Source of the DNA: a virus
Taxonomy: Duplodnaviria > Caudoviricetes
DNA length: 55,761 nt
Direction: 5' to 3' (one strand)
Virus record (IMG/VR): IMGVR_UViG_3300037483_001815
Span: 1 to 55,761 of that record
Both the position numbers and the translations under genes were made by a program. Positions 870 to 54,742 of this stretch are shown piece by piece; the first letter of the stretch is position 1, and every line of letters begins with the position of its first letter. The notes under the pieces were generated by a model, which made no database searches, was not told the origin of the DNA, and saw nothing but the letters and a program-made list of their open reading frames with translations.

Positions 870-1232
870 TCATTGCAGAATACCGGCCCGCCTGCTGTTT
901 GCCGCTCCATTCTGCTTACCCTTCATGTACGAGACCTCTTTCTCCAGCGCCGCATGGGATGCCTCCAGATCGTCCAGGTCATCGGCCGTGGCGTAAGTCT
1001 TAGGCAGATCCTCCCGGCAAGCCCGATGCTTCTCGTAGAGATCAATGATATGTTTTTGGATGTCCTCCGCCTTTTCTTTCAGGCGGGCCTCTGTCCCGTC
1101 CACCTGATCTTTTAACCGCTGTTCAGTACCTGATAGTTGGTTCTTGATAACCCAGACAGTGAGGCCGAAACCACCGCCGGTGGCCACCAGCAGCAACCCT
1201 GCCTCGAAAAACTGCTGTCCAATCCCCGTCAT
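870..1232 (-). CDS. Membrane-anchored coiled-coil protein (holin/XhlA-like)
   Basis: N-terminal hydrophobic helix then coiled coil; ATGA overlap with giant gene stop. Confidence 0.7.
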   Translation of the reverse strand: MTGIGQQFFEAGLLLVATGGGFGLTVWVIKNQLSGTEQRLKDQVDGTEARLKEKAEDIQKHIIDLYEKHRACREDLPKTYATADDLDDLEASHAALEKEVSYMKGKQNGAANSRRAGILQ

Positions 1233-31780: not shown

Positions 31781-32104
31781 TTACTCTTTTCTGGCGTACC
31801 GCTTGACCATCTCCTGGGCCGCCAGCTGGGCTGAAAACTTCCGCTCCCCGAATCTTTTCAGCAGATCAACCAGGGATTTGGCCTCCGGATCAAGACTGAC
31901 CAGGGTGGTAACCCTGACGGTCAGCCGCTCCTCTATCAGCCCCAGCAGAACATCAGCCGCCTGGCTTTCCGACACGCCCATAAATCCCATCTGCCGCAGC
32001 AGGGTGGACTTATCCTCGGCCGCGTCGGCCCTTTGCCGGTCCCGCTGCACCATCTCCGCCGGCATGCCGCTGACAATATCAATCTCCGTCCGTCCCTCGC
32101 TCAT
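31781..32104 (-). CDS. Hypothetical protein between portal and scaffold
   Basis: 107 aa, ATGA-coupled to portal. Confidence 0.75.
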   Translation of the reverse strand: MSEGRTEIDIVSGMPAEMVQRDRQRADAAEDKSTLLRQMGFMGVSESQAADVLLGLIEERLTVRVTTLVSLDPEAKSLVDLLKRFGERKFSAQLAAQEMVKRYARKE

Positions 32105-33933
32105 GCCGCATTTCCTCCGCCTTCTCCCTGGCCGTCCGGTTGGGGAGGAGCCAACATCATATTGATCCGCAGCTGCTGCAGCTTATCGCCGACCTCTTTG
32201 GACAGGAAAATGTTCTCATCCTGCAGGCCGGTACGCCGCTCCAGGGCCTGCAGCACGTTGTAGGGCATGATATACGGCCCGTAAGCCGGATCATTGGTCA
32301 TAGGGATAATGGTGCGCACCAGGGTGGCCACCGTCTCGGCGTCCTTCATCAGCTTCTGGATGCCGGACACATGGAATGCCCCGCTCATTCTCGGCAGACC
32401 TTGGATAATCCCGTCCCGGCCCAGGCTCAGGCCGTATTTCCGCATACCTTCGTCACCCAGCATGGCCTGGTAATCCTGCCAGCCTGCCCAGGCTTCCACT
32501 ACCTCCCGCCCGGCGCTTACCCCCTGGACGGCGCCCAGTTCCACATTGGTGCCCATCAGGGAAAACACCTCCATGGCCTGCCCCAGGTTCTGCTCGCTCT
32601 CCCGCCAGGTCATATCCTGCCGGTACCCCGGCAAACCCTGCACGCTGTCGGAAACAGCGGTCCCCCGCTGATAGTTCTGGTCGTGGTACTGCAGATTAGC
32701 CAGCACGGAGCCGGTTACATCCCGGCGGGAAACCTGGCGCACGGCCTGCTGTCCGTTCAGGCTGTCATGGGTCAGATAGGACCGGCCTGGCGCTGTTTTG
32801 ACATCCTCAGGATCAACCAGGGCGTCGACGTTAATCTCGGTCATGGGATTGACCAGCCACTTCATGGCGTCCTCATGCAGACACATCAGGTTGCACATGG
32901 CCTCCCAGGTCGTGCGGATACCATCCAGCAGCCCGCGGCCACCCAACTGCAGCAGGTCCGGCTGGGGGGAAAACATCACGCTGGGCCAGCGCAGGGTGTG
33001 ATAGCGCACCCCGGCGGGGGCCTTGATCAGGCGGCCGCCCATCACGCTGTAGGTCGCCCTGGGCAGCAGCAGTTCACCATTCGGGGACAGCACCGTGCCC
33101 CAAAACTCAAAGACCCGGCCCATTTTCATAAATTTTGATCTGGTCCAAATCTGGTCCTTGCGGGCCGCCAGGGCCTCCCTGGTCATGAACGGGTTATCCG
33201 GATTTTCATCGTTGGTGTTGAACCCTTCATCAATATTCTGCAGCAGCCCCTTGTCCGCCTGGGCCTTGAGCTGATAGAAATGCTTCCACTCCTGGTGGAT
33301 CCAGAAAACGCCGGACTGGGGATCACGGGGAGAAGCGTCCGGATCCCGGCAGATCTTCCACGGCTCGATCAGCTCATACTGCAGCCCCTTGCCCGGCACC
33401 CAGCGTGGCTTCATATCCATGGACTCACCCACCGCCAGGCCCATGGTGGTGGCGTCGACAAAGCGGATGACGAAATTAGCGTGCCGGTTGTCAAGCTGGG
33501 TGTTCATCACCTGTTTCCAGAACTTCGCCGGCAACTGCTGCAGCGGGTCCTCGATACTGAGAAAGTCGGGGGAAAAGCTCTTGCGGATCTGGGCCGCGGC
33601 AAACTGCACCGTATTGTACGGCCTGGGAACAATGATCCGGCTTTGCCAGGCCGCCTTGCGAGCAAAGGAAAACGGCTCCTTCTCCTTGTAAACCCGGTAG
33701 CATTCCGCCTGTACCTGACGGACATCCTTGCGGGACTGGTTGTCAGTATTGACGCAGTCCATGCAGTAATCGACCAGGTGCTTTTCATCCTCCAGGGAAT
33801 AGCGGCGGGCAGCCTGCTCCCGCTCCGCCAGCTCCTTCCCATCCATGCGAGAAGGACCGCCACGCTGAATCCGGCGAAAACTGTCCAGCAGAGGGTACAG
33901 GGCATTTTTTCTGATTTTCTGCAGATCAATCAT
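32101..33933 (-). CDS. Portal protein
   Basis: 610 aa after TerL; P22-like portal features (DPDASP, VFEFWG, GGRGLL, GTAVSDSVQG). Confidence 0.85.
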   Translation of the reverse strand: MIDLQKIRKNALYPLLDSFRRIQRGGPSRMDGKELAEREQAARRYSLEDEKHLVDYCMDCVNTDNQSRKDVRQVQAECYRVYKEKEPFSFARKAAWQSRIIVPRPYNTVQFAAAQIRKSFSPDFLSIEDPLQQLPAKFWKQVMNTQLDNRHANFVIRFVDATTMGLAVGESMDMKPRWVPGKGLQYELIEPWKICRDPDASPRDPQSGVFWIHQEWKHFYQLKAQADKGLLQNIDEGFNTNDENPDNPFMTREALAARKDQIWTRSKFMKMGRVFEFWGTVLSPNGELLLPRATYSVMGGRLIKAPAGVRYHTLRWPSVMFSPQPDLLQLGGRGLLDGIRTTWEAMCNLMCLHEDAMKWLVNPMTEINVDALVDPEDVKTAPGRSYLTHDSLNGQQAVRQVSRRDVTGSVLANLQYHDQNYQRGTAVSDSVQGLPGYRQDMTWRESEQNLGQAMEVFSLMGTNVELGAVQGVSAGREVVEAWAGWQDYQAMLGDEGMRKYGLSLGRDGIIQGLPRMSGAFHVSGIQKLMKDAETVATLVRTIIPMTNDPAYGPYIMPYNVLQALERRTGLQDENIFLSKEVGDKLQQLRINMMLAPPQPDGQGEGGGNAA

Positions 33934-34198: not shown

Positions 34199-35635
34199 TT
34201 ATCCCCGGCCCGGGGCGTAACTCATGGCGACGCGCATGTTTTCCTCACGCTGCGCCCGACGCTGGACAGAGCCTGCCGCCGGCCGGCCGCTGTCAAGTTG
34301 GGGCAGCAGTAACGGCACCCCATGGCTTAATGCGTCGCCAACATGGGAATACTCATCTTTCACCGGGGTGGTGCCGATGGGCTTGCCGTTGTTGTCCTTC
34401 TTCCAGTGCCAGCCGCCGTTTAATGCCTTGTGTACGGCATGGGCGCTGCTGGACACACATATTTTCTCCTCGCCGTTGACACACTTGGTCAGCATGGCGG
34501 CCTGCAGCGGGTTGATCCGCTGGGGCCAGCGGGAAGGCCCCGGCTCAAATCTGGTACCAAGCTTCTTTTCAATCAGTTTGGCCGCGCTCTTGGTCCGGGT
34601 GGACTGGTCCGGGGTGGCCATGGTTGGATCGCCAATGTCCCGCCACTGGTCTATCTTGCCCTTGTATTTCTCGCCGGCCAGCATGGGAGTTACCATCTCG
34701 TCAATCAGCACATCAACTCCGCAGCCCTGGCCCACCAGCACATCATGGAGCCAGAGGCGGCCAGGCGGCAAAAACTGGCCGATCACGCAGACCGGGTTAT
34801 GCCAGCCGTCCCAAAAACGAATACCCTGAGCGCCCGGTATCACCGGCAGCACCCGATCGGCAAAATGGGCCTTGGCACTGTAGCCCGGCACCACCTTGAC
34901 CCCTCGCTGGATGGGGGCGGCCCGGCCTTCCACGTAACGGGCGAACTTGCCTGGGTCCCGTTGGAACGCGGCCCGGTTGGCCGCCCTGGTGTGGGGGTTC
35001 AGAAATTTGTTGTCCCCATAGGGGATACGGAAACACTGTTTGCGGATACACACCCCGGTGTCCGGATCCCGGGCGAAAATCTCCGGCTCCCAAAACAAAT
35101 CTTCCGTCCAGTGCTCCTCATCCGCCGGGTTCTGCGTAATCTGCACCCGCATTTTGGTGCCGGTCTGGCGGGAGGCCCGGGCCACCGCCATGTCGAACAC
35201 ATCGCGGGACAGGCCGGCGTTGTTTTTTTCCAGCACAGGAGCCGGCTCCTCGAGCATGATGAAACTGACAATCAAAGATTGGAATTTAGAGAGTGCCCCT
35301 TCGTCGCCGGCGCCGAACAGAAACAGCTCTACTTTGGGGCTACTGTGGATTACCAGCCGCTTACTGTCGTCATGCACCGAGACATAGTCTCCCAGCAGCT
35401 CGATAAAATCAGGGACTGTGGTGTTTTTGATGTTGATGTGGGTATCGCGGATGATGGCCCCGCGTATATCGCGGCCGCAGCGGACGGCATGGGCCATGAT
35501 AGCGACAATGCCCGCCGTGGTTTTTCCCTCTCCCATGGGACCGCATATCTGCACGATCTCGGCGTCCGAATGGACAAAGGCCGACTGAGTGGGGGACAGG
35601 TCAAAGACCAGATCTCGGTCAGCCACGGTTGCCAC
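34199..35635 (-). CDS. terL: Terminase large subunit
   Basis: PTQ motif, Walker A GPMGEGKT, Walker B FIMLEE, TQNP coupling motif, nuclease IGDP and SHVGDAL. Confidence 0.92.
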   Translation of the reverse strand: MATVADRDLVFDLSPTQSAFVHSDAEIVQICGPMGEGKTTAGIVAIMAHAVRCGRDIRGAIIRDTHINIKNTTVPDFIELLGDYVSVHDDSKRLVIHSSPKVELFLFGAGDEGALSKFQSLIVSFIMLEEPAPVLEKNNAGLSRDVFDMAVARASRQTGTKMRVQITQNPADEEHWTEDLFWEPEIFARDPDTGVCIRKQCFRIPYGDNKFLNPHTRAANRAAFQRDPGKFARYVEGRAAPIQRGVKVVPGYSAKAHFADRVLPVIPGAQGIRFWDGWHNPVCVIGQFLPPGRLWLHDVLVGQGCGVDVLIDEMVTPMLAGEKYKGKIDQWRDIGDPTMATPDQSTRTKSAAKLIEKKLGTRFEPGPSRWPQRINPLQAAMLTKCVNGEEKICVSSSAHAVHKALNGGWHWKKDNNGKPIGTTPVKDEYSHVGDALSHGVPLLLPQLDSGRPAAGSVQRRAQREENMRVAMSYAPGRG

Positions 35636-39461: not shown

Positions 39462-39500
39462 ATAAAAAAAGCCCCGGCCTGCTGGAACAGGACCGGGGCC
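39461..39500 (-). terminator. Rho-independent terminator of the leftward early operon
   Basis: Minus strand GCCCCGGTCCTG-TTCCAG-CAGGCCGGGGC-TTTTTTTATT at the point of convergent genes. Confidence 0.8.
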
Positions 39501-39576
39501 ACTACACGGCCAATACCTACGGAGGACATGGCCGCAATCAATCTACCATACCCGACGCACCCAGGGCAACCCTGGC

Positions 39577-40068
39577 CTACTTCTTCTCGATCCCGACCTT
39601 CCCCCACTGCCAGCTGGCAGGCAGGTTCCCCCCCAGCCACACCGAGTTGAACATGACCACGGCCCAGTCCGGATCCTCGGTGCTCTCCGCCACGTCCATC
39701 ATCAGCCTGGCGTCGGCCCGCAATTTCTCCAGCCGCGTGCCGCCGGCAAAATACCACCCATCATGCCAAAAACAATACGGGTAGAGATTAACCCCACGCC
39801 AACGCTGGGGGCAGCCACCGCTGCAGCCGTCCGACACAAAAAGCTTGTCCGGCAACTGCTTCCGGAGCTTGGCCACCAGGGCCGGCCTGGTCCCGTCCAT
39901 CACGGCCAGCTGTAGCAGCTGCTTGGCCGTGATGGTCTCCCCAGGGGACGGAAGAACGGCAATGCTTGCCGGCGGGGCAATGCTTGCCGGATCTGCCCCG
40001 GCAGCAGGGCACGCGGCGCAGGAAATGCTGCACAGCAACAGGATGATGGCTATTAATTTCTTCGACAT
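39577..40068 (-). CDS. Exported phospholipase A2-like protein
   Basis: Signal peptide; SDGCS...CFWHDGWY...RADARL resembles the prokaryotic PLA2 CxxHDxxY motif. Confidence 0.55.
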   Translation of the reverse strand: MSKKLIAIILLLCSISCAACPAAGADPASIAPPASIAVLPSPGETITAKQLLQLAVMDGTRPALVAKLRKQLPDKLFVSDGCSGGCPQRWRGVNLYPYCFWHDGWYFAGGTRLEKLRADARLMMDVAESTEDPDWAVVMFNSVWLGGNLPASWQWGKVGIEKK

Positions 40069-40090
40069 TTTGCACTCCTTTTCTGCTACG

Positions 40091-40624
40091 TTATGCCTCT
40101 ACTGCCAACCCGAGCGGATTGCCATCCATAACCGAGCAAATGATCTTCTCCATTTCGGCATCATCTGCCTTAATGCTGGTCAAAAGCCATCTGCCGTCAG
40201 GCAGCGGGTAATAATTCGTGTCAGGGACGCCATAACCAAAATGCGCAGAAAGGGAATTCGCCCGCATTGAGACAGAGGACTTGCACGAAAATTGCGATTG
40301 AGGAATGCCGGCTTTATCGGCTGCAGCACCCAAAATTCTACACGGCCCGTAATCGACATCAAGCCATGGGGGAAAATGTTCCTTATCCAGCGGCTCGTCT
40401 CGCAGCCGCACCAGCTCAGCGGTAAGAACTTGCCGAAACGTTTCAACCCTGGCGGGCATGTCGTCTACCAGCGCCTTGTCGCTTTGAATATTTATTGTGG
40501 CCAGCATGAGGACCATGCCGCCGTGTACCGAGTTATCCCCGTTGTTAAAAACAGGCACAAAAAGCTTTTTGCACCAAATATCAACCGCCTTGCGGATAAT
40601 CAAATCAGAAACTTTTACTCGCAT
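40091..40624 (-). CDS. Hypothetical protein
   Basis: 177 aa, GGAGG RBS, lower GC. Confidence 0.75.
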   Translation of the reverse strand: MRVKVSDLIIRKAVDIWCKKLFVPVFNNGDNSVHGGMVLMLATINIQSDKALVDDMPARVETFRQVLTAELVRLRDEPLDKEHFPPWLDVDYGPCRILGAAADKAGIPQSQFSCKSSVSMRANSLSAHFGYGVPDTNYYPLPDGRWLLTSIKADDAEMEKIICSVMDGNPLGLAVEA

Positions 40625-40732
40625 CGTTATACCTCCTAGCGGTCATTAGTTTTTATGTTCTCATCCCGCGTCGAAACGCGGTCGTGGGAGCTGCTGGTTG
40701 TGGTTTGCGGGCTGATTGCCTCAGCCTCTTCG

Positions 40733-41023
40733 TTAGCGGTCGGTCCGCTGCAACCTATCTATTTCAGCAGCAATCAAAGCACCGGCAACGGCCAGTTTAT
40801 CGATCTGGTTTTTTTGGTCGAATTTCTCTTTATATTTTTTGTCCCATGTCTCCGGCCACCGGCCCAACTGTGCTCCACGTGGCACCTTCGCAAGCAGGTA
40901 TATGGCCGCTCCTACCAACTCTCCGCTACAATGACCAGGGCTTTTGTCATGGACATAGTCAAAACCATGCTTCAATATCTGCTCGTTTCTTTCTTTGGTG
41001 ATGAGATACAAGCCATCCTTCAT
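40733..41023 (-). CDS. Phage hypothetical protein (cassette 1)
   Basis: AGGAG RBS; ERNEQILKHG..HD..GEL..AA..LAVAGALIAAEIDRLQR. Confidence 0.8.
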   Translation of the reverse strand: MKDGLYLITKERNEQILKHGFDYVHDKSPGHCSGELVGAAIYLLAKVPRGAQLGRWPETWDKKYKEKFDQKNQIDKLAVAGALIAAEIDRLQRTDR

Positions 41024-41044
41024 TCCACTCTCCTGTAATTTTTC

Positions 41045-41114
41045 CGCTAACAAATCGGTCGAGTTCGGGCCAGGCCCGGCAAACAGCGCCGGGCCGCTCA
41101 CCTCACCGTTGGCA
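41045..41114 (+). other. attC site (70 bp)
   Basis: R'' CGCTAAC, 5 nt, L'' GGT(C)GAGT, hairpin GGCCCGGC/GCCGGGCC, L' GCTCACC, 5 nt, R' GTTGGCA. Confidence 0.85.
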
Positions 41115-41117
41115 ATC

Positions 41118-41987
41118 CTAAGCTACCTTGCGCCTGTAGTCATCCCAGGTGCAGGATTTGTAAATTGCCCGATGGTTCACCCAGCGAGCAAATGCCTTTT
41201 GATCATTGGCGGGCTCGGCACCGTCCGGGGCTCGGAAAGGTTGCGCGAACGGAACCACATACATGCCCTTCAGGAAGCGCACCCTCTCCAGGGCATCGTC
41301 AACGTCTCGCACCAGGACATAGCAAAAAATCTGTGCCGGGTTTACGTTGTGCCACCTGAGCAGTTCGACCGCCCGCCGGATCGTGTCTATCTGGCCCGCG
41401 GTATCACATGCTAAACGAATGTGCCGAATCCATTTCAACTTTCCGAGTCGGCGGGCAACAGAGTCGTCAATCAGGCGGGCATCTAGGCCCTGGTTAAAAT
41501 CCACACGCAGGCCGAGGCGGGCCATTTTGTCAATCTGATCTAGGCCGTGAGAGTGGGCCAGCACGTTGTTGTCCATCAGCACCACGTCACGGTGACGGGC
41601 AAAGGCTTCCACGTCCTGGTGTGGCCGTATTGCCCCTTCCTTGCGCGGCACGAAACACCATTCGCAATGTCGGATACAGCCGCGAGTCAGAAAACCATAG
41701 CTCTCGTTACAGCCGTATATTGAGTAATCCGGGCAAAGAAGCTCAATGTCATCAGTCAGCACCGTTGCAACGTCATGGCCGGTGCCGCCGTAGATCGTGC
41801 CGGCCGGTAGGTACGGGTCTGGCTTCGACCAGGTAAATACCTTGGAGGAGTAAACGCGGTCATACCCTCCGGTCAGGGCGCTGAACCACTCAACGGTATC
41901 ACCTTGCGCCCGGTGATGTGCCGCGATCTTCATCAAGGCCACATTGGGGTACTTGGTAGCGTCGTTGTCGTGTAGGGCAATTTTCAT
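41118..41987 (-). CDS. Radical SAM protein (cassette 2)
   Basis: TRGCIRHCEWC CxxxCxxC motif, DNN, DFNQGLD. Confidence 0.9.
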   Translation of the reverse strand: MKIALHDNDATKYPNVALMKIAAHHRAQGDTVEWFSALTGGYDRVYSSKVFTWSKPDPYLPAGTIYGGTGHDVATVLTDDIELLCPDYSIYGCNESYGFLTRGCIRHCEWCFVPRKEGAIRPHQDVEAFARHRDVVLMDNNVLAHSHGLDQIDKMARLGLRVDFNQGLDARLIDDSVARRLGKLKWIRHIRLACDTAGQIDTIRRAVELLRWHNVNPAQIFCYVLVRDVDDALERVRFLKGMYVVPFAQPFRAPDGAEPANDQKAFARWVNHRAIYKSCTWDDYRRKVA

Positions 41988-42008
41988 CGTTCCATCCAAA
42001 TTTCGGAT

Positions 42009-42097
42009 TGCCAACAAATCGGCTCACCAGACGGCGGTGAGCCTTCCGAATTTCAATCAAGTTTTGTGGCCGCCGCAGGTGGCCTCAGTCGTTATGG
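42009..42097 (+). other. attC site (89 bp)
   Basis: R'' TGCCAAC, 5 nt, L'' GGC(T)CACC, CGGCGG/CCGCCG stem, L' GGTGGCC, 6 nt, R' GTTATGG. Confidence 0.85.
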
Positions 42098-42271
42098 CAA
42101 TAAAAACTCAACGCCGACAAGGTCTTCGTGCCCCGTTTTTACATCGGTCACCCAGTACACCCGGTCATCATTGTAATCAAAATAGGAGATGAGCCTAACC
42201 GTTGCTGTCCCAAGAGCAAAATGCACAGTCCTAGTCTTTTTAGCTCTGCTCTTGCGCCATAATTTAGCCAT
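42092..42271 (-). CDS. Small hypothetical protein (cassette 3)
   Basis: ATG within R'' box, TAA within R' box, GAGGTG RBS inside attC. Confidence 0.6.
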   Translation of the reverse strand: MAKLWRKSRAKKTRTVHFALGTATVRLISYFDYNDDRVYWVTDVKTGHEDLVGVEFLLP

Positions 42272-42325
42272 AACCAATCACCTCAGCGGACCGCTACGCT
42301 CCGCCGCTTTACCTTTTCGTTATGC
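42268..42325 (+). other. attC site (58 bp, 59-be size, L boxes imperfect)
   Basis: CCATAAC caatc ... AGCGG/CCGCT ... GTTATGC. Confidence 0.7.
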
Positions 42326-42571
42326 CCGTCGATTCCACGCCTCAACCGGCAGGTTTTTTCTGCTGGATTCACCCGATTGGCAATTGCAGGTTTCACAGCA
42401 GACTTTCCACCACTTACCATTGTTGTCAACTCTCAGAAATGGTCCTTTGTTGAAAAGCGGGTCTGTTGCTTTTTTTGTAGAGTCGCCGCAGAATGGACAC
42501 GGCTTGAGGGCATAACCAGACGAATCGACCGGCCCTGCATCCGCCGTTTTTGAGCCCTGATTAGTTGACAT
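42320..42571 (-). CDS. Lar-like restriction alleviation protein (cassette 4)
   Basis: LKPCPFCG...VCCETC...EAWNRRA signature; GGAGG RBS. Confidence 0.8.
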   Translation of the reverse strand: MSTNQGSKTADAGPVDSSGYALKPCPFCGDSTKKATDPLFNKGPFLRVDNNGKWWKVCCETCNCQSGESSRKNLPVEAWNRRA

Positions 42572-42596
42572 ACTAAATTTACCTCCGTGGTTGTGC
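42510..42596 (+). other. Degenerate attC site
   Basis: GCATAAC ... acctccgtg GTTGTGC; core boxes present, L boxes poorly paired. Confidence 0.45.
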
Positions 42597-42597
42597 C

Positions 42598-43692
42598 TCA
42601 AACAGCTCGAAACTCTACAACCCAAACAAACGGGTTCTCTTCCCAAGATTTGAGGCCGTTAATATCTTTCCAGCAGGCTTCAAAGGCCAGCTGCGCGTTT
42701 CCATAGCTTTTCCCTGCCCATGATTCAAGCCCGTTCAGGCCAGGCATAAAAACTTCTGCTTTTGCATCGGCACGGCTGATCCCCTGTACTCGCTCTACGC
42801 GGATACTCAATATCTCCAATGTAATCCTGGAAGCAGCCCGTCGCATAAAAATGGACGGACGCTTGCGGTAATGCCTGCGGTCGGTCGTTTCCGGGGTCTC
42901 AGTGGCGGCGTAATACGGTCGGTCGTTATTGTCCACGCACTCCCACCATGTTTCACGGACCCATAACCTATCGCCAGTTTTGCCATAAGGACATTTCCGC
43001 CAAACGGGATCATCAATATTTTGCGGTATCGAATCCTGAAACCGTGCATGGATATGGCCATCGTTGCATTCCAGCCAGGACACGCGGCGCTTATATCCTG
43101 GCAATACCTCCCAATGATGTGCAGGTGGTTGTGGCTTTACAATCCTCCGCGTCTGCGTTTTTTCCCCTGCCAGAATAGCCATGACCATCGGCCCTGAGAA
43201 CAAAACAGGGCGACAGGAAGGCCGTTTTCTCTTTTTTCTCCTCATAAATCCCCCCCCATTTGCCCGCACTATCGTTGTTGTCTCGACAACCCCGCCGGCC
43301 CTGGCCGGCGTTGAATAAACCCAGCACCCATCAATCCCCGTGCGCATCCAGCCGATAAACGCGGCGGCATAGCCGTCCACCGGCATATCTTCCACCCGCC
43401 CCCCCACCACCTGCCGGAAACAGAGCGCCCTGCCGGTCAAATCGGTTATGCTGCCGGCATACTCCAACGCGCAGCCCGGCAACATCCTCACCCGGGTGAA
43501 CCCGGCAGAGGTATGCCCGCCCCGGATCGTGGTGAACCGATCCCCTGGGACCATCAGCGACTTGTCGCCCAGCTCCTGGGGAGAAGCGGAAAGCTCCGGC
43601 CGCCGGCGGAAAAGAAATAAAAAACTGTCCCACATAGCCACCCGGTCATACAGAAAACCGGGATAGCGGATGCCCTTTGCCTTTTTCCCCAT
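42598..43692 (-). CDS. ASCH/PUA-like phage protein with N-terminal extension (internal start at 43245)
   Basis: PVLFSGPMVMAILAGEKTQTRR, CPYGKTGDRLWVRET, PSIFMRRAASRITLEI, NPFVWVVEF. Confidence 0.75.
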   Translation of the reverse strand: MGKKAKGIRYPGFLYDRVAMWDSFLFLFRRRPELSASPQELGDKSLMVPGDRFTTIRGGHTSAGFTRVRMLPGCALEYAGSITDLTGRALCFRQVVGGRVEDMPVDGYAAAFIGWMRTGIDGCWVYSTPARAGGVVETTTIVRANGGGFMRRKKRKRPSCRPVLFSGPMVMAILAGEKTQTRRIVKPQPPAHHWEVLPGYKRRVSWLECNDGHIHARFQDSIPQNIDDPVWRKCPYGKTGDRLWVRETWWECVDNNDRPYYAATETPETTDRRHYRKRPSIFMRRAASRITLEILSIRVERVQGISRADAKAEVFMPGLNGLESWAGKSYGNAQLAFEACWKDINGLKSWEENPFVWVVEFRAV

Positions 43693-43710
43693 GTCCCATC
43701 ACCTCCCTTG

Positions 43711-44097
43711 TCAGTTCGGGACCTGACCGTTATCATTCTCCTGCCGGGCCATCTCCGTGCGGACATACCCCTGGGCAACCTCCATGATATGGCTGGACCA
43801 GGCCAGCGTATCAGGATCCGAAAGAATAAATGTCAGCCGCCCCACCTGAGCAGCCGATTGTGCCGCCGCCGGCCAGTCTACCAGCACCAGCAGCCGCGGC
43901 GACATCCCAACCGCGTCAATCTCGCTGATGGTGGCCATCGTGGCACGCAGAATGCCGCTTATCGCCTGGCCTGTAGGACCATTCAGCAACTGGCTGCCGG
44001 CGATCCGGCCCATGTCCTCCATCAGCCGCACCAGGTTAAACCGGAACAGCTCAAGCTCCTCTTCGGTCGGCACCTTTCCCTGTTCATCCATTGTCAT
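43711..44097 (-). CDS. Hypothetical protein
   Basis: 128 aa, GGGAGG RBS. Confidence 0.7.
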   Translation of the reverse strand: MTMDEQGKVPTEEELELFRFNLVRLMEDMGRIAGSQLLNGPTGQAISGILRATMATISEIDAVGMSPRLLVLVDWPAAAQSAAQVGRLTFILSDPDTLAWSSHIMEVAQGYVRTEMARQENDNGQVPN

Positions 44098-44151
44098 CCT
44101 CCCGTCATCCTGTCCATTAAGTTATGTTCTTGCCCCAACTGACCATCGTTT

Positions 44152-44580
44152 TTACAGAAATGGATCATCAGGCCACGCCATCCAGTGTGTAGCCTCCTCT
44201 GTCGGAAACGGGGCAAGGCCAATATCCTGCGCCCATACAAATTCTGCTTGGCAATCATCCCACCGCAGAGCTAAGTGCTGGGCAACCCGGCCAGGACCGG
44301 CGGCAACAATACAAATCTGATCAGGCTGCGGCTTTATCTGCGGGAAGGGAAGCCAAACAACATTGTTCTTCCCCTCACACTCATTTTTATAATGGATGGC
44401 ATACGTTTTACCGCACCCGCACCTCACACAAACCCCAGTAGAGTCAAAACAATGGCCATAAACAACAAAATACGGTGACGCATCAACTCCGGCCGCCTCA
44501 ACCACAGACCGCTTACTTTTCCGCCGCAATATCCCCGCCGCAATTTTTTCAACTCCTCGCCGCTGCCTATAACTCATCAT
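44152..44580 (-). CDS. Hypothetical protein with DUF551-like C-terminus
   Basis: ATHWMAWPDDP terminal motif; start reassigned to 44580. Confidence 0.6.
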   Translation of the reverse strand: MMSYRQRRGVEKIAAGILRRKSKRSVVEAAGVDASPYFVVYGHCFDSTGVCVRCGCGKTYAIHYKNECEGKNNVVWLPFPQIKPQPDQICIVAAGPGRVAQHLALRWDDCQAEFVWAQDIGLAPFPTEEATHWMAWPDDPFL

Positions 44581-47608: not shown

Positions 47609-47827
47609 TCAGATCATCCAGGCCAGCAGCAGCGCAACCGCTGCCGTCACTCCCGGTAAAGGGAGATCAAAACGGCGCTGGTAACCCCGGGCCTCATCCC
47701 AGCTTCTTTCATCATCCGCATAGGTGGCCCAATCGTATAAACGCAGAACGAAAATAACCAGGGAGATGGCCCCGATGGCCATCACCCCGAACCGCAGCAC
47801 ACTTGTCATCACCACATGACTCATCAT
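47609..47827 (-). CDS. Small two-TM membrane protein
   Basis: Two hydrophobic helices; overlaps primase stop. Confidence 0.65.
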   Translation of the reverse strand: MMSHVVMTSVLRFGVMAIGAISLVIFVLRLYDWATYADDERSWDEARGYQRRFDLPLPGVTAAVALLLAWMI

Positions 47828-50457
47828 AATTCCAGCTTTCTCTCTTCACCTTCGCCGATAACCTCGGCCCACACCTTGCGCAGCCCTATGCCGCGGAACA
47901 CAGTCGGCCGGTGGCCTCCCACCCTGTGCCGCTCTTTTTTTACCCCATCCAATGACTCCAGCTGGTCGCCGAACTTACCCTGGCCAACCTTGCGGTACAG
48001 CTTGGCGTCCGCCCACTCCTTGTATTCCTTGAACAGCTCGTTTGACTCCCCATGCACATTCGGATGCAGCACGCAGCAGTCCATAACAAAGGCCAGGATA
48101 TTGTTCATTTTGGCCATGAAATCCGCCGCGTCACTGCGCAGAATCTTGTCATCGGTGAAACGCCCCTGCCTGAGCAGCCGGCGGGCGCCCTCGACGGCCC
48201 AGTTGAGGATCCCGGGCAACTCCTGCTCCCGCAGCTTGTCCCGCAGATACTTGTCCCGCTCATCCTCGGTAAAACGTCGGTTAAAGTTCAGCACCAGGAC
48301 CTTGCGCACGAAGCCAAATGCCTTATCCGTGATGGCCGGCGGGGTGTTCATGGCGAAAATACACTTACAAAAGGTACGGAAGGTGATCTGCTTGCCGAAT
48401 TTGGTATCAGAGCTGAGCAGGTCCCCGGAAATGATCTTTTTCAGGTTCTCCGTGCCGGCCACATCCTTGGTGTCCACCTCGGTGGCGCTGTTCATCATCT
48501 TGCCCCGCAGGCTGACCAGGGGGAACTGCCTGGACATGGCCTCCAGGGACAGAGCGCTGACGTTGTCCTCTCCCAGCAGCCAGGTGATGACATCGAGAAC
48601 CGTACTCTTGCCGTTGGCCCCGGTGCCGAAAAAAAAGGCGCATTTTTCAAAACGGCAGGTGGGCAGCAGCATATAGCCCATGAACTCCTGCAGCACCAAC
48701 ACCTTGCACGGCTCTCCCTGGAAAATATCATGGATGGTCTTGATCCACAGCTGGCATTCGGCATACGGGTCAAAGGCGGTGGCCACTTGGGTGCGCAGGT
48801 AATAATCCGCCCGATGCGGCAGCAGCTCGAATTTTTCAATATCCAGCATGCCGTTGGCCACATTGACCAGGTTGCCCACCTTATTCGTGGCCCAGGTCCA
48901 CTGCCTTTCCTCCATGTTGGCAAAAAAACTCAGTCCCTTGATGGCATCATTCACCCGGGAAACCTGCATCTGCGGCCCCAGGGCCACGGCCGCCACCTTG
49001 CCGACCTCCGCAGAATCGATCTCCTGCCACAGGCCGGTGCTGTATCGCCAGTATTCGCCGGCCGTATGCACCACCGGGGCCAGATACCGCTGCAGGTAAT
49101 CCATCAGCCGTTTCTGCCGGAAACTGGGCCGCTTGCCATCCACGTTTTCAAAAAATTCAGCCCATTCCATTTCCGACGGATGGGGCACGCCTGGCGCTCC
49201 CGGCACCACGTCGAACAGGGCCGCTTTTTCGTCCTCGTTCGGCTCCCGGTACTGGGTGGCCACTTTATCCGGCGGCCGCCAGTTCGGATCATACCCTTCA
49301 CAAAACTTGGCCAGCTTGGCGTCACCCGAGATAAGCAGCCTGGCGTCCTTCCAGGTCTTACCCTTGCAGGTATCGTGGAAACATTGGTAGGTGATGTGTG
49401 GCGGGGTGTCGGATGATACCAGCCCGCAACACTTATGCCCCTGGTGCTCGGCGTTGAAAACGCACTGATCAAAGGCGTACAGCATGCCGTTGCCCACCGG
49501 CTTGGTGGCGGTTACCTCGATGTTATAAAAGGCCAGATACTCATCCAGCTTGAGCTTGCCCAACTGCGGCCGGCCATCCCCCTGGCGGCCGCCCTTGGCC
49601 GCCGGCTTATTGCCGCCCCCGGCCGCCGGACTGCCGCCCTGGGCGGCAGCGGGGGCAGCAGCCGCTTTTTTCTCCGGTTCCGGGGCCTGGTCCGCCAGCT
49701 CCTGCAGCTGCTGCAGACTGATCTCCCGGACCAGCTCCAGCCGGTCCGGGGCGGACCCGGCCAGGCTGGCCCTTCGATGCGGCCGAAGCGGGGTGGAATC
49801 CCCTTTGCGGGCCATGGTGCCGTACAGCTTCCAGATCCGGCTCGGGTTATAGTTGACCTGGTCAATCTTGATCACCCCGGGCCGGCCGAACCTGGCATTA
49901 AGCGCCTGCAGCGCCTTATGCAGCATCCCCCCGGACCCGCTGATCTCCGGCGCCGGCGCCTGGTCCGGCAGCCGGTACATGATATGATAGCCGTTGCCGC
50001 TCAAAGCCCGGACGCCGGCCGGCCAGTCGCAAGTTCCCTCCAGCCAGGCGGTCAGCTCCGCCCCCACCTGGCCCGCCAGCTCCAGCTCCTCACCGGTGGA
50101 CGATATGCCGGCGGAACGAACGGGATCCACATCAACCAGCAGCCAGCGGCTGCAGACAATATCCTTGTCCGCGGCAGACATGCCATCGACACCGCTCTTT
50201 AAGCGGTTGGCGGCCCGGGCCAGCAGATCGGCATTTACCGGGTTAGCGGTGAAATAGGTCCCCTTACCGCCCGCCTTGTCGATGGCCGCGGCGGCTTTGG
50301 AGAAATCCTCGGTATTATCAAAAAAGCCGTATACCGTGCCGTTGGCCCAGCCCTCCCAAGCCGGCGAGTTACCGCGCACGCCCAGTGCCCGCAGCTCGAC
50401 CACCTCACCGGGGTGGAAAAATAGCGGGTATACCCGGCTTATCCCGTCATCAGCCAT
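47824..50457 (-). CDS. Primase-helicase, P4/D5 family (AEP-like N-terminus, SF3 helicase, C-terminal winged helix)
   Basis: VDVD..SGNGYH primase motifs; NVANGMLD D5_N; GTGANGKST Walker A. Confidence 0.92.
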   Translation of the reverse strand: MADDGISRVYPLFFHPGEVVELRALGVRGNSPAWEGWANGTVYGFFDNTEDFSKAAAAIDKAGGKGTYFTANPVNADLLARAANRLKSGVDGMSAADKDIVCSRWLLVDVDPVRSAGISSTGEELELAGQVGAELTAWLEGTCDWPAGVRALSGNGYHIMYRLPDQAPAPEISGSGGMLHKALQALNARFGRPGVIKIDQVNYNPSRIWKLYGTMARKGDSTPLRPHRRASLAGSAPDRLELVREISLQQLQELADQAPEPEKKAAAAPAAAQGGSPAAGGGNKPAAKGGRQGDGRPQLGKLKLDEYLAFYNIEVTATKPVGNGMLYAFDQCVFNAEHQGHKCCGLVSSDTPPHITYQCFHDTCKGKTWKDARLLISGDAKLAKFCEGYDPNWRPPDKVATQYREPNEDEKAALFDVVPGAPGVPHPSEMEWAEFFENVDGKRPSFRQKRLMDYLQRYLAPVVHTAGEYWRYSTGLWQEIDSAEVGKVAAVALGPQMQVSRVNDAIKGLSFFANMEERQWTWATNKVGNLVNVANGMLDIEKFELLPHRADYYLRTQVATAFDPYAECQLWIKTIHDIFQGEPCKVLVLQEFMGYMLLPTCRFEKCAFFFGTGANGKSTVLDVITWLLGEDNVSALSLEAMSRQFPLVSLRGKMMNSATEVDTKDVAGTENLKKIISGDLLSSDTKFGKQITFRTFCKCIFAMNTPPAITDKAFGFVRKVLVLNFNRRFTEDERDKYLRDKLREQELPGILNWAVEGARRLLRQGRFTDDKILRSDAADFMAKMNNILAFVMDCCVLHPNVHGESNELFKEYKEWADAKLYRKVGQGKFGDQLESLDGVKKERHRVGGHRPTVFRGIGLRKVWAEVIGEGEERKLEL

Positions 50458-52284: not shown

Positions 52285-53040
52285 TTACGTTTTTTTCATC
52301 CGGACCCCGCGGAAAATAGAAATCCGGCTGCCTTGCACCCGCGGCCGTTCTTTCCTGATGCCCGGCACGGCCAGAAGATTTTCAACGAACATCCTTTCAC
52401 TCAACGACGAAGGCCGTTCCGATGCCCAATCCCGGTATGACCGATACAGTTCCAGGGTGGGGACGAAGAAGAACGGATCAAGCTCGCAACACTCCGCCAG
52501 GAAATCATGGCATTGGCGAGGGGCGGCGGGCAGCAGCGGGGCATAGTCAATGCCCGTGGCCTCGCGGGCGTTTTCCACGGCCAGCTTCCGCGCCGTGAGC
52601 ACGTCCACGCCGATCCGCTTGCAGACGCGCAGTTCGTTTTCGATGACCTTGTGCGCCAACAGGATACGCTTGGCAGCCTGGTTTCTTTCTTTGCAGCTGG
52701 AGTTGAAGCCGGCAACGGAGTAGCTGCCGATCTTGCGGATGGCGGGGAGGACCTCGTGAGTCACCCAGCGCCGGAATGGTTTGGCTTGCGGTTTGTTGGA
52801 ACGAATGATCAGGGTATAGAGTCCGGACTCGGAGATGAGATTCATTTCTCGTAGCTGGCCACCTGATGTAAGTTTTTCTGACATCAGCTCGTCAGTATCG
52901 AGACCTTCGATAGCCATTCTGGAGTTTGTATGCCCAAGAACGGCACAAACATCAGCAGCGACAAACCATAGTTCCCCCTGACCGTCGGTAATAGTCCGTA
53001 TCTCGTTTTCACTGTAATAAAACGAAACCACATCATTCAT
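52285..53040 (-). CDS. Bro-N antirepressor fused to D5-like C-terminal winged helix
   Basis: WFVAADVCAVLG, ISESGLYTLIIRSNKPQAKPFRRWVTHEVLPAIRK; C-terminus FLAECC..LYRSYRDW. Confidence 0.88.
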   Translation of the reverse strand: MNDVVSFYYSENEIRTITDGQGELWFVAADVCAVLGHTNSRMAIEGLDTDELMSEKLTSGGQLREMNLISESGLYTLIIRSNKPQAKPFRRWVTHEVLPAIRKIGSYSVAGFNSSCKERNQAAKRILLAHKVIENELRVCKRIGVDVLTARKLAVENAREATGIDYAPLLPAAPRQCHDFLAECCELDPFFFVPTLELYRSYRDWASERPSSLSERMFVENLLAVPGIRKERPRVQGSRISIFRGVRMKKT

Positions 53041-53057
53041 GCCCACCCCTCCCTCTG

Positions 53058-53101
53058 TTGTCAATTAAGGTTTAGTTATTTTTTGACTTGTCAAAAAAGG
53101 T
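53058..53101. promoter_or_regulatory. Cluster of GTCAA(T/A)(T/A)AAGGT motifs matching res half-sites
   Basis: GTCAATTAAGGT at 53060; CTTGTCAAAAAAGGT 53087-53101 identical to 36963-36977. Confidence 0.55.
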
Positions 53102-54382: not shown

Positions 54383-54742
54383 ATGAAAACCATAGCCATC
54401 GTTGCCATCCTGTTCTTGTCCATGGCCACTTCGGCCCACGCCTTGCCGGAATCGCACTACCAGGACAAATGGTGCACGGAGCATAAGGGCAAAGCCGAGG
54501 TGGTGCTGCCGGACAAGACCCGCGTGGACTGCCTGACCGACAGCCACGCCGTTGAGTTTGACTTCGGCAAAAAATGGGCCGAGGCCATCGGGCAATCACT
54601 CTACTACTCATTCCAGACCGGCAAGCGGGCCGGCGTGGTTTTGATCCTGGAAAAGCCACAAGACAGAAAATTCTTTATCCGGCTGAACAGCGTCATTGAC
54701 CACTACCACCTGCCGATTGATACCTGGACAGTGACCCCATGA
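54383..54742 (+). CDS. Signal-peptide protein with PD-(D/E)xK-like nuclease motif
   Basis: MKTIAIVAILFLSMATSAHA signal; E..RVDCLT..AVEFD..WAEAIGQSLYY. Confidence 0.65.
   Translation: MKTIAIVAILFLSMATSAHALPESHYQDKWCTEHKGKAEVVLPDKTRVDCLTDSHAVEFDFGKKWAEAIGQSLYYSFQTGKRAGVVLILEKPQDRKFFIRLNSVIDHYHLPIDTWTVTP

What the first reader, a model, noticed from the sequence alone, without database searches (positions are those of the whole stretch)
40732..42596. Integron-type attC cassette array inside the phage early operon, with genes antisense to the attC sites
Seen: four consecutive genes are each bracketed by perfectly complementary core sites: GTTAGCGG(40732)/CCGCTAAC(41044), GTTGGCAATCC(41108)/GGATTGCCAAC(42005), GTTATGGC(42091)/GCCATAAC(42267) and GTTATGCCC(42319)/GGGCATAAC(42508). 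The spacers have attC architecture (R''-5nt-L'' with an extra 4th base, hairpin, L'-5/6nt-R'), clearest at 41045 and 42009. Established: within one cassette, R'' matches the core site at the cassette's own start rather than the R' beside it, which is the footprint of IntI insertion of circular cassettes at G|TT. The extra base makes + the top strand, so every ORF is inverted relative to canonical cassettes. Cargo is phage-type (Lar-like anti-restriction, radical SAM, hypotheticals), and the window has no intI, attI or Pc. Inference: the phage keeps a shufflable accessory-gene array, transcribed by its own early operon and rearranged in trans by a host integron integrase. attC sites have been reported in phages, but I cannot recall this antisense, operon-integrated design being characterised.
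Basis: partly seen in the sequence, partly recalled or inferred. Interest (0 to 1): 0.92.

Follow-up and report, generated by a model that had tools for sequence, protein, structure and literature searches.

The report
Inverted integron cassette array in phage
A temperate phage carries three genuine integron-type recombination sites that cut its accessory genes into swappable cassettes, but with the genes pointing the opposite way to nearly all bacterial cassettes.

Summary
The finding holds, with corrections. All four inverted pairs are at the stated coordinates. Short inverted pairs alone are close to chance, and the fourth pair lies inside the Lar-like ORF.

The case rests on attC architecture. 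I built a covariance model from 101 attC sites next to bona fide integron-integrase genes. On the whole window it finds only three sites above noise. All are on the + strand, in consecutive spacers: 41045-41114 (32.9 bits), 42009-42097 (29.5) and 42268-42325 (17.0). The model also recovers three attC sites in phage TJE1, as published.

- In relatives, homology switches exactly at G|TT.
- The radical-SAM gene is bracketed by co-varying R boxes in three contexts.
- Two related phage records carry other arrays with different cargo: RtcB, vWA, DNA methylase, Lar-like.
- Gene polarity is antisense in 8 of 10 cassettes here, against 2 of 75 in bacterial arrays.
- No integron integrase lies in these phage records.

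Host, current activity and the trans-acting IntI remain inferred. attC clusters in phages are already published; the inverted polarity and natural G|TT breakpoints are new as far as my searches reach.

The parts
40732..40739 (+). Left junction of the array: core G|TTAGCGG, the start of cassette 1. No attC lies to its left.
   Evidence: Sequence. It is complementary over 8 nt to the R'' of attC1 at 41044-41051. A model search of 40000-40800 finds nothing above 2.2 bits.
40733..41026 (-). Cargo of cassette 1: a 97-aa ORF. Its TAA stop lies inside the reverse complement of the core site.
   Evidence: ORF list. Weak PHROG matches only (phrog_6628, 1.3e-7). A 34%-identical stretch lies in a 225-aa gene that follows the radical-SAM gene in L082.
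41045..41114 (+). attC1, 70 nt: R'' CGCTAAC, spacer AAATC, L'' GGT[C]GAG, hairpin, L' CTCACC, spacer TCACC, R' GTTGGCA.
   Evidence: Descriptor hit. Model R1 gives 32.9 bits, E 6.6e-5, full length, + strand only. The same L boxes (GGTCGAG/CTCACC) and the same AAATC spacer occur in genuine attC sites.
41118..41990 (-). Cargo of cassette 2: a 290-aa radical-SAM domain protein.
   Evidence: phrog_9298 at 6.3e-82. Bracketed by an 11-nt perfect R'/R'' pair. Homologues in L082/L125 and L121 are bracketed by different but again perfectly complementary pairs.
42009..42097 (+). attC2, 89 nt: R'' TGCCAAC, spacer AAATC, L'' GGC[T]CACC, then G[A]CGGCGG pairing with CCGCCGC, L' GGTGGCC, spacer TCAGTC, R' GTTATGG.
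   Evidence: Descriptor hit with both 6- and 7-nt L boxes. Model R1 gives 29.5 bits, E 3.3e-4. Its 3' half recurs in L082 joined at G|TT to a different cassette.
42092..42271 (-). Cargo of cassette 3: a 59-aa ORF with no family match. Its start and stop codons overlap the R boxes.
   Evidence: ORF list. No Pfam or PHROG match.
42268..42325 (+). attC3, 58 nt, degenerate: R'' CCATAAC, spacer CAATC, then the CGGAC motif, R' GTTATGC. Two L-box pairs are broken.
   Evidence: Model R1 gives 17.0 bits, E 0.14, full length, + strand. The next best hit in the window is 11.2 bits. Its R'' is complementary over 8 nt to the R' of attC2.
42320..42571 (-). Lar-like restriction-alleviation gene (83 aa) abutting the array. 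Its TAA stop overlaps the R' of attC3. It is not itself bracketed by a second attC.
   Evidence: PF14354 at 7.1e-6 (26.6 bits, cut-off 28.6). phrog_599 at 3.6e-9. No attC hit at 42480-42620.
40091..40624 (-). 177-aa flanking gene. [quoted passage not shown]
   Evidence: 76% aa identity to L082 16897-17424, which lies upstream of L082's radical-SAM gene.
42598..43692 (-). 364-aa flanking gene upstream of the array. It looks like a fusion of two parts.
   Evidence: Residues 1-144 match a separate 163-aa gene in L082 (70%). Residues 152-364 match phrog_874, and residues 158-364 match the 208-aa gene of L003 (50%).

Best explanation
Positions 40732-42325 hold a cluster of three integron-type attC sites with no integron integrase nearby (a CALIN). 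It sits in the accessory region of a temperate phage, between the replication genes and the packaging genes. The sites cut the region into three promoterless cassettes: a 97-aa ORF, a radical-SAM protein and a 59-aa ORF. The array is inserted directly behind the stop codon of a Lar-like anti-restriction gene.

The attC top strand is the + strand, while every gene reads on the minus strand. The recombinogenic bottom strand is therefore the sense strand of the phage genes.

Shown: the sites have canonical attC anatomy. Each cassette carries the footprint of cleavage at G|TT. Relatives differ by exchanges whose breakpoints are exactly at G|TT. The same phage lineage carries other arrays of the same polarity with other cargo, mostly counter-defence genes.

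Inferred: the exchanges were made by an integron integrase (IntI) supplied in trans by a host, acting on the folded bottom strand. The cassettes are expressed by read-through from the phage's own promoters. Because attC x attC insertion keeps polarity, only cassettes whose ORF is antisense to attC are expressed, and so kept, in such an array.
For: 1. Yardstick. A descriptor was written from the classical attC layout. On 20 ten-kb stretches beside IntI genes that score above the TIGR02249 cut-off, it gives 109 hits on the expected strand and 2 on the other.

2. Descriptor on the window. In the window it hits 41045-41114 and 42009-42097 on +, one other place (260-381), and nothing on minus. Shuffles give 1.10 +/- 1.02 hits. 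Two same-strand hits less than 1.5 kb apart occur in 3 of 200 shuffles.

3. Covariance model. Model R1 was built from 101 of those 109 sites. With filters off, on both strands of the window, it finds three full-length hits of 32.9, 29.5 and 17.0 bits, all on + and all in consecutive spacers. The next best is 11.2 bits.

4. Controls.
- 9 of 10 phage loci have no hit.
- 4 of 5 whole phage records have none.
- L082, L083 and L084 have nothing above 11.2 bits.
- Genuine arrays score 15-68 bits.
- Phage TJE1 gives three sites of 24.3-30.6 bits. That is the number PMC9892861 reports for its CALIN, two of which were recombined by IntI1. Their coordinates are not in the text I read.

5. Footprint. The R'' is complementary to the cassette's own start over 8, 11 and 8 nt, but to the adjacent R' over only 3, 3 and 6 nt. 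In genuine arrays the medians are 9 and 5.

6. Breakpoints. Window attC2 junction against the L082 junction: 45 of 60 identical left of G|TT, 16 of 60 right. Window attC1 junction against the same: 18 of 60 left, 47 of 60 right. Gene order also differs between the two phages.

7. Co-varying R boxes around radical-SAM homologues: GTTGGCAATCC/GGATTGCCAAC (window), GTTGGAAAGCC/GGCTTTCCAAC (L082, L125), GTTAGGTT/AACCTAAC (L121). L121 also has attC hits on the antisense strand.

8. Other arrays. L003 has four sites. G424 has six. Cargo is RtcB, vWA, N6_N4 DNA methylase and Lar-like.

9. Polarity. 8 antisense, 1 ambiguous and 1 sense of 10 cassettes, against 2, 11 and 62 of 75 in bacterial arrays. 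Fisher p = 2.9e-8.

10. No IntI above cut-off in G000, G403, G408 or G409.
Against: - No integron integrase, attI or Pc was seen, and the host genome is not available. The recombinase is therefore inferred.
- Scores of 33, 29.5 and 17 bits are in the lower part of the range for genuine sites. attC3 has two broken L-box pairs.
- The closest relatives (L082, L083) keep the radical-SAM gene but only relics of attC: 7.7 bits upstream and a 3' half downstream. The sites can therefore decay, and the array may be a fossil.
- The only structural variant seen in an independent metagenome joins 41068 to 42159, not at G|TT. It is a 263-nt contig at depth 2.5.
- The training sites for R1 were picked with my descriptor, so R1 is not fully independent of it. 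The TJE1 result and the attC3, L003 and G424 hits are independent of it.
- R1's E-values come from a shortened calibration.
- IntegronFinder's own model was not on hand.
- The radical-SAM cassette was not found in 401 bacterial genomes searched, apart from one weak hit. No link to a bacterial cassette pool is therefore shown.
- Cassettes within one array are not independent samples for the polarity test.
Confidence: 0.78

Rival explanations
1. Fossil array. The sites are true attC sites left by old IntI events, but they no longer recombine. Today they are only intergenic spacers, perhaps RNA hairpins, in a fixed operon.
For: - attC3 is degenerate, at 17.0 bits with two broken L pairs.
- The closest relatives, L082 and L083, keep the genes but only attC relics.
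- There is no attC left of 40732.
- The one variant seen in another metagenome is not at G|TT.
Against: - attC1 and attC2 keep perfect L boxes, the extra base and the spacer lengths. They score like TJE1 sites, two of which recombine experimentally (PMC9892861).
- The R boxes around the radical-SAM gene co-vary perfectly in three contexts. This argues for continued constraint or recent exchange.
- G424 holds a duplicated Lar-like cassette with identical attC sequence, a sign of recent events in the lineage.
Confidence: 0.14
2. Shuffling by another route. The conserved intergenic stem-loops act as portable homology for general recombination, or as targets of a phage-encoded recombinase, as proposed for the promoter-stem-loop cassettes of T4-type phages (recalled, not read here). 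They resemble attC only by convergence.
For: - The phage has its own tyrosine integrase (54739-55761; phrog_1 at 2.5e-57).
- The 3' half of attC2 is conserved between the window and L082, so it could serve as homology.
- No IntI was seen.
Against: - The phage integrase scores 41.7 bits against a 265-bit cut-off for IntI.
- General recombination predicts breakpoints inside shared sequence. It does not predict a cassette-own R''/R' complementarity that co-varies.
- The sites match a model trained only on sites beside true IntI genes, strand included.
- There is no excess of promoter-like sites in the spacers: 3 found against 2.8 +/- 1.6.
Confidence: 0.05
3. Chance. These are ordinary inverted repeats plus terminator-like hairpins between genes, read as attC by a motivated eye.
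For: - Inverted 8- to 11-mers are near chance level.
- Fold z-scores of the spacers are modest, from -1.5 to -2.5.
- One terminator-like hairpin lies in attC2, on the minus strand.
- There is no Rfam match.
Against: - The three best model hits of the whole window fall in three consecutive spacers on one strand.
- About 330 kb of control phage and metagenome sequence searched with filters off gave no hit above 14.2 bits, apart from the L003 and TJE1 arrays, the two hits flanking the radical-SAM gene of L121, and one 22.4-bit hit in L133.
- Homology breaks exactly at G|TT.
- The R boxes co-vary.
Confidence: 0.03

Closest known systems
Phage-borne CALINs: clusters of attC sites without an integrase in phage genomes (Qi et al. 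2023, PMC9892861; I read section 3.4 and passages). One example is Tetrasphaera phage TJE1.
   Same: Both have several attC sites in a row in a phage genome, with no intI and with small cassettes. The cargo includes anti-restriction functions: DNA methylases there; Lar-like, methylases and RtcB here. The model scores are alike, at 24-31 bits for TJE1 and 17-33 bits here.
   Different: In TJE1 the ORFs read with the attC top strand: 2 of 2 cassettes are sense. Here and in L003, G424 and L121 they read against it. That paper's main text holds no 'antisense' or 'opposite'. It reports no comparison of relatives with G|TT breakpoints. Its supplementary tables, which list all 17 CALINs, could not be opened. 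A weak 12.4-bit hit in Polaribacter phage P12002L lies antisense between two methylase genes. Antisense cases may therefore sit unremarked in that data set.
Cassette arrays of bacterial chromosomal integrons, and bacterial CALINs (Cury et al. 2016, PMC4889954; passages read).
   Same: They share the attC anatomy, the R''/R' footprint, cassette sizes and cassette duplication. Some sites even share identical L boxes and spacer.
   Different: The phage arrays have no intI, attI or Pc. They lie inside a phage operon and the cargo is of phage type. Polarity is inverted: 2 of 75 bacterial cassettes are antisense, against 8 of 10 here.
Inverted cassettes of chromosomal integrons, such as toxin-antitoxin cassettes with their own promoters (recalled; only abstracts of PMC13108822 were seen in search listings).
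   Same: The ORF is antisense to its attC.
   Different: Those are scattered exceptions with their own promoters. Here the whole array is inverted, and no promoter-like sites stand out in the spacers.
IntI-mediated insertion of cassettes outside att sites (preprint 10.1101/2022.09.11.507474; only the start of the abstract was seen, in the listing).
   Same: It offers a route by which a first cassette could enter a phage genome at a plain GTT. The left end of the array (40732) is such a junction, with no attC beside it.
   Different: That work concerns bacterial genomes. It was not tested here.

Membership tests
integron attC recombination site | Terminal R'' and R' boxes with the conserved triplets ...AAC and GTT... 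| tested here: met
   CGCTAAC/GTTGGCA, TGCCAAC/GTTATGG and CCATAAC/GTTATGC. All 109 control sites carry the triplets by construction of the descriptor.
integron attC recombination site | L''/L' boxes that pair, with one extra (extrahelical) base in L''. An unpaired spacer of 5 nt lies after R'', and one of 5-6 nt before R'. | tested here: met
   Met exactly by attC1 and attC2. The extra base is C and T on top. In control sites it is C 75, G 19, A 8 and T 7 of 109. Not met by attC3, which has two non-pairs in the L boxes.
integron attC recombination site | Significant score with a covariance model of attC, on one strand only. | tested here: met
   My own model R1 gives 32.9, 29.5 and 17.0 bits on +, and nothing on minus at E up to 10. 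IntegronFinder's attc_4 model was not on hand. Rfam has no match.
integron attC recombination site | Cassette footprint: the R'' of a cassette is complementary to the core at its own start, more than to the R' beside it. | tested here: met
   Own runs are 8, 11 and 8 nt. Adjacent runs are 3, 3 and 6 nt. In genuine arrays the medians are 9 and 5.
integron attC recombination site | Recombined by an integron integrase as a folded bottom strand, with cleavage at G|TT. | not testable with these tools
   Indirect evidence only: homology between relatives switches exactly at G|TT.
[quoted passage not shown] | Two or more attC sites within 4 kb, with no intI nearby. | tested here: met
   Three sites lie within 1.3 kb. 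The only tyrosine recombinase in the 55.8-kb record scores 41.7 bits against a cut-off of 265. The host chromosome beyond the provirus was not seen.
complete integron | An intI gene with attI and the Pc promoter beside the array. | tested here: not met
   No IntI in the window. No attC-like or other recognisable site left of 40732. attI and Pc have no model here.
T4-type promoter-stem-loop shuffling cassettes (recalled) | An early promoter plus a stem-loop in each intergenic spacer. | tested here: not met
   3 promoter-like sites in 39500-44200 against 2.8 +/- 1.6 in shuffles, none of them in the spacers on the minus strand.

The most novel reading that the evidence does not exclude
A phage-adapted, mirror-image branch of the integron cassette world. 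In this lineage of environmental temperate phages, counter-defence genes (Lar-like, DNA methylases, RtcB, radical SAM) circulate as cassettes whose ORF is antisense to attC.

Such cassettes would be silent behind the Pc promoter of a bacterial integron, but are expressed in a phage operon.

Because the recombinogenic bottom strand is then the non-template (sense) strand, transcription or lagging-strand replication of the phage would expose it. That would make these arrays more recombinogenic than bacterial arrays, which keep the bottom strand on the leading-strand template (PMC11023631, passages read).

New cassettes could be minted when IntI joins an attC to a GTTA that is the reverse complement of a TAA-C stop codon. 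This would explain why the stop overlaps the core in three of the four genes at window cores (97-aa, 59-aa and Lar-like; the radical-SAM gene stops just outside its R' box) and also in the 177-aa flanking gene at 40090.
Probability: 0.25. Interest if true: 0.88.

Novelty: new variant of a known kind. Interest (0 to 1): 0.72.

Why it matters
Bacterial integrons have recently been described as banks of anti-phage defence cassettes. I saw this only in abstracts: 10.1101/2024.07.02.601686 and 10.1101/2024.07.02.601719.

Here the other side of that conflict appears to use the same recombination sites for counter-defence genes. It does so in a polarity that is rare in bacteria.

Natural relatives that differ by exchanges precisely at G|TT give direct field evidence that integron-type recombination reshapes phage genomes. 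The attC sequences of this window give concrete substrates for a strand-specific recombination assay.

If the polarity rule is general, it would also bear on an open question: how new cassettes are made, and which pools of cassettes can be exchanged between phages and bacteria.

Tried and rejected
- Rfam, gathering thresholds, whole window: no match. I saw no attC family reported.
- Close DNA relatives in the phage collection: none.
- Radical-SAM protein in viral contigs: no relative.
- The 364-aa neighbour in genome contigs: two distant hits on short contigs, of no use.
- tRNA scan: none.
- Folding of the spacers as single strands gave modest z-scores of -0.2 to -3.7. I do not use them as evidence.
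- The fourth pair (42319/42508), read as a cassette boundary, was rejected. It lies inside the Lar-like ORF, there is no model hit there, and 9-mers are at chance level.
- A possible attC left of 40732 was rejected.
- The first version of my ORF-polarity count missed ORFs that end inside the attC. It mis-called one TJE1 cassette. I replaced it and report only that count for the test. The earlier figures were 56 sense, 12 ambiguous and 7 antisense of 75.
- Reads and contigs of three sediment metagenomes. X1 may be the source sample. X2 and X3 hold parts of the stretch. The single joint found (41068 to 42159) does not fit G|TT. Parts without cover say nothing.
- Radical-SAM protein against 401 bacterial genomes: one weak hit.
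- Cassette proteins against the 20 bacterial arrays: only generic methylase similarity.
- Literature searches for an antisense or inverted phage cassette array turned up none. Only the PubMed Central open subset and bioRxiv were searched, and supplements were closed.
- I ran no structure or complex predictions and no protein database searches. The question was about DNA sites.
Full report
**What the window is.** The window is a complete IMG/VR provirus record of 55,761 bases. Nearly all long ORFs read on the minus strand.
- A phage-type tyrosine integrase lies at 54739-55761 on + (phrog_1, 2.5e-57).
- An anti-repressor lies at 52285-53064, and a primase at 47824-50457.
- Weak terminase and portal matches lie at 34199-35635 and 32101-33933.

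The flagged stretch therefore sits in the accessory region between the replication and packaging genes. No close DNA relative is in the phage collection.

**The observation.** The genes between them are on the minus strand:
- a 97-aa ORF;
- a radical-SAM protein (phrog_9298, 6.3e-82);
- a 59-aa ORF;
- a Lar-like protein (PF14354 at 7.1e-6, just under Pfam's cut-off; phrog_599 at 3.6e-9).

As bare inverted repeats the pairs prove little. GTT-anchored perfect pairs within 2.5 kb number 36 for 8-mers, against 24.5 +/- 4.9 in 200 dinucleotide shuffles. For 11-mers the count is 1 against 0.53. The fourth pair has its second arm inside the Lar-like ORF.

**A yardstick for attC.** No attC model was on hand, and Rfam gave nothing, so I made a positive control.

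I searched 401 unnamed bacterial genomes with the NCBIfam model of integron integrase. 147 had a match above its curated cut-off. That tally includes four genomes flagged unpublished, from which I took nothing. I fetched 20 stretches of about 10 kb on the side of intI where the cassette array should lie.

I then wrote a plain descriptor from the classical layout:
- ...AAC;
- 5 nt;
- a 7-nt L'' whose 4th base is extra;
- any loop;
- a 6-nt L' perfectly complementary to L'' without that base;
- 5 or 6 nt;
- GTT...;
- 50-150 nt in all.

It hit these stretches 109 times on the strand expected from the direction of intI, and twice on the other. The descriptor is thus a valid and strand-specific test.

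In the window it hits 41045-41114 and 42009-42097 on +, one other place (260-381), and nothing on minus. Shuffled windows give 1.10 +/- 1.02 hits. Two same-strand hits within 1.5 kb occur in 3 of 200 shuffles. Genuine sites include the very L boxes of attC1 (GGTCGAG/CTCACC) and the spacer AAATC that attC1 and attC2 share.

**A covariance model.** From 101 of the 109 control sites I built model R1. Eight sites were dropped for off-consensus R boxes or overlap. The model has 75 positions and 13 pairs.

With filters off, on both strands of the whole window, it reports five matches at E up to 10. Three are full length, all on +, and lie in the three consecutive spacers:
- 41045-41114 (32.9 bits, E 6.6e-5);
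- 42009-42097 (29.5 bits, E 3.3e-4);
- 42268-42325 (17.0 bits, E 0.14).

The other two score 11.2 and 8.6 bits.

Genuine arrays score about 15-68 bits. Echoes of strong sites on the wrong strand score some 22-32 bits lower.

Negative controls:
- nine of ten phage loci;
- four of five whole phage records;
- L082, L083 and L084.

These had nothing above 11.2 bits.

An independent positive control is Tetrasphaera phage TJE1. The paper reports a CALIN with three attC sites there, two of which IntI1 recombined (PMC9892861, section 3.4 and passages). R1 finds three sites at 24.3-30.6 bits. The paper's text as I read it gives no coordinates to compare. The window's sites therefore score like phage sites that work in an assay.

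Two cautions apply. R1's training set was chosen with my descriptor, and its E-values come from a shortened calibration.

**Anatomy.**
- attC1 reads R'' CGCTAAC, AAATC, L'' GGT[C]GAG, a GC hairpin, L' CTCACC, TCACC, R' GTTGGCA.
- attC2 reads R'' TGCCAAC, AAATC, L'' GGC[T]CACC, then G[A]CGGCGG pairing with CCGCCGC. The unpaired A sits at the place of the conserved CGGAC motif of genuine sites (consensus). Then follow L' GGTGGCC, TCAGTC and R' GTTATGG.
- attC3 keeps the R boxes, the spacer and the CGGAC motif, but two L pairs are broken.

**Footprint of G|TT exchange.** In an array, everything from TT of one core to the G of the next belongs to one cassette. A cassette's R'' should therefore pair with the core at its own start. 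In the window the perfect runs are 8, 11 and 8 nt for own pairs, and 3, 3 and 6 nt for the R' beside it. In 75 cassettes of the genuine arrays the medians are 9 and 5.

The left end (G|TTAGCGG at 40732) has no attC beside it. This is as expected for a first insertion at a plain core. The right end is the R' of attC3, which overlaps the stop codon of the Lar-like gene.

**Relatives.** Two records (L082 and L083, identical over 18000-19400 of L082) share a primase at 77% aa identity and a portal-like protein at 83%. They have no model hit, but they do hold the radical-SAM gene at 74%.

Gene order differs:
- L082: 163-aa gene, 182-aa gene (the homologue of the window's 177-aa gene), 178-aa gene, radical SAM, 225-aa gene.
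- Window: 364-aa gene, Lar-like, 59-aa, radical SAM, 97-aa, 177-aa.

At the 3' end of the radical-SAM gene, L082 carries the 3' half of the window's attC2, joined at G|TT to the radical-SAM cassette.
- Window attC2 junction against this junction: 45 of 60 bases identical left of G|TT, and 16 of 60 right of it.
- Window attC1 junction against it: 18 of 60 left, and 47 of 60 right.

The switch of homology is at the crossover point of integron recombination.

The radical-SAM gene is bracketed by GTTGGAAAGCC/GGCTTTCCAAC in L082 and L125, and by GTTAGGTT/AACCTAAC in a 61%-identical copy on a metagenome contig (L121). In the window the pair is GTTGGCAATCC/GGATTGCCAAC. All three pairs are perfect and all differ. 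L121 also has model hits of 24.3 and 12.6 bits on the strand opposite to the gene, on both sides of it.

In L082 the upstream site survives only as a 7.7-bit relic with a 3-nt insertion. The downstream site has lost its 5' half. Four further radical-SAM homologues (L122, L123/L124, L126, L127) have no such repeats.

**More arrays in the lineage.**
- L003 shares the phrog_874 domain of the 364-aa gene at 50%. It has four sites at 44.7, 43.0, 34.1 and 21.2 bits on the strand opposite to its genes. Its own-pair R boxes are GTTAGCT/AGCTAAC, GTTAGCC/GGCTAAC and GTTGGAA/TTCCAAC. Cargo is a vWA protein, RtcB (PF01139, 1.4e-83) and a 73-aa ORF.
- G424 has a portal-like protein at 53% identity. It has six sites, all on one strand. 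In its 19-23 kb stretch the genes are on the other strand: a Lar-like gene present twice with identical attC (phrog_599, 6.9e-5), a methylase-like gene (phrog_799) and an N6_N4 methylase (PF01555, 3.8e-28).
- Of 40 further related records, mostly small fragments, 2 had hits at E up to 0.05. These were G424 and a fragment of the same kind.

**Polarity.** I counted the longest complete ORF on each strand of every cassette bounded by two sites.
- Bacterial arrays: 62 sense, 11 ambiguous, 2 antisense of 75.
- This phage lineage: 8 antisense, 1 ambiguous (the Lar-like cassette of G424), 1 sense of 10.
- TJE1: 2 sense of 2.
- Fisher p = 2.9e-8 for 8:1 against 2:62.

An earlier count that missed ORFs ending inside the attC is withdrawn. 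Cassettes of one array are not independent, so the p-value overstates the case. The pattern nonetheless recurs in four separate contexts.

**What is not shown.**
- No IntI above cut-off lies in the window or in the records of L003, L082 and L083.
- The host is unknown.
- attI and Pc cannot be tested.
- Promoter-like sites are not enriched: 3 against 2.8 +/- 1.6. Read-through from phage promoters is therefore inferred.
- The one structural variant seen in another sediment metagenome joins 41068 to 42159, not at G|TT. It rests on one 263-nt contig at depth 2.5.
- The radical-SAM cassette was not found in the 401 bacterial genomes searched.

**Mechanism.**

Shown: canonical attC sites, the G|TT footprint, G|TT breakpoints between relatives, variable cargo at a conserved kind of place, and inverted ORFs.

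Inferred: a host integron integrase acts in trans on the folded minus strand. Insertion by attC x attC keeps polarity. An array whose top strand runs against the operon can therefore only express, and so only retains, cassettes with antisense ORFs.

Speculative: the bottom strand being the sense strand may make these arrays more recombinogenic. Bacterial arrays keep it on the leading-strand template, which limits folding (PMC11023631, passages). Stop codons of the form TAA-C may serve as secondary GTTA cores for minting new cassettes.

**Novelty.** Integron parts in phages are published: 17 CALINs in 10,705 phage genomes, with methylase cargo and assays (PMC9892861). My three literature searches found no description of an inverted, operon-embedded phage array, nor of G|TT breakpoints between wild phage relatives. 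I therefore rate this a new variant of a known kind.

Noticed in passing
window 1229-14803 (minus strand): A single ORF of 4524 aa lies in the structural half of the provirus. It was not examined.
   Followed up: no
window 42598-43692 (minus strand): The 364-aa gene looks like a fusion. Residues 1-144 match a stand-alone 163-aa gene in L082 (70%). Residues 152-364 match phrog_874, and residues 158-364 match the 208-aa gene of L003. In L003 a weak attC (21.2 bits) overlaps the 5' end of that 208-aa ORF. The fusion may therefore mark an old cassette junction.
   Followed up: partly
window 41069-42158: One 263-nt contig of an independent sediment metagenome (X2, depth 2.5) joins 41068 directly to 42159. 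This removes the radical-SAM gene, attC2 and parts of attC1 and the 59-aa ORF. X2 also shows some cover inside the skipped part. The breakpoints are not at G|TT. It could be a rare deletion variant or an assembly error.
   Followed up: partly
window 40090-40097 and 42319-42326: The stop codon of the 177-aa gene lies in GTTATGCC, the same 8-mer as the R' of attC3 at the stop of the Lar-like gene. 8-mers at this distance are at chance level, but both sit exactly on stop codons at the two edges of the array region.
   Followed up: partly
window 43564-44013: In all three metagenome runs, a contig goes back from 44013 to 43564 with the same 34 extra letters between (table 5c). It is an unexplained rearrangement or a related sequence from another organism.
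   Followed up: no
L082 18337-19140: The radical-SAM gene of the closest relative lacks 23 residues present in the window's copy, in frame. Its flanking attC sites are decayed.
   Followed up: partly
L150 10988-11409 and 13004-13425 (G424 20487-20908 and 22503-22924): A Lar-like 76-aa ORF occurs twice within 2 kb, each time with an attC identical in sequence on its 5' side. This is a duplicated cassette.
   Followed up: partly
L118 30005-30059 (Polaribacter phage P12002L): A weak model hit (12.4 bits, E 1.1) lies on the + strand between two minus-strand DNA methylase genes. If it is the published, assay-positive attC2 of this phage, that site is antisense too.
   Followed up: partly
L003 1-351: An ORF at the end of the locus is made of tandem 22-residue repeats of the form NGYALQYVKEQTEAVCLEAVKR.
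   Followed up: no
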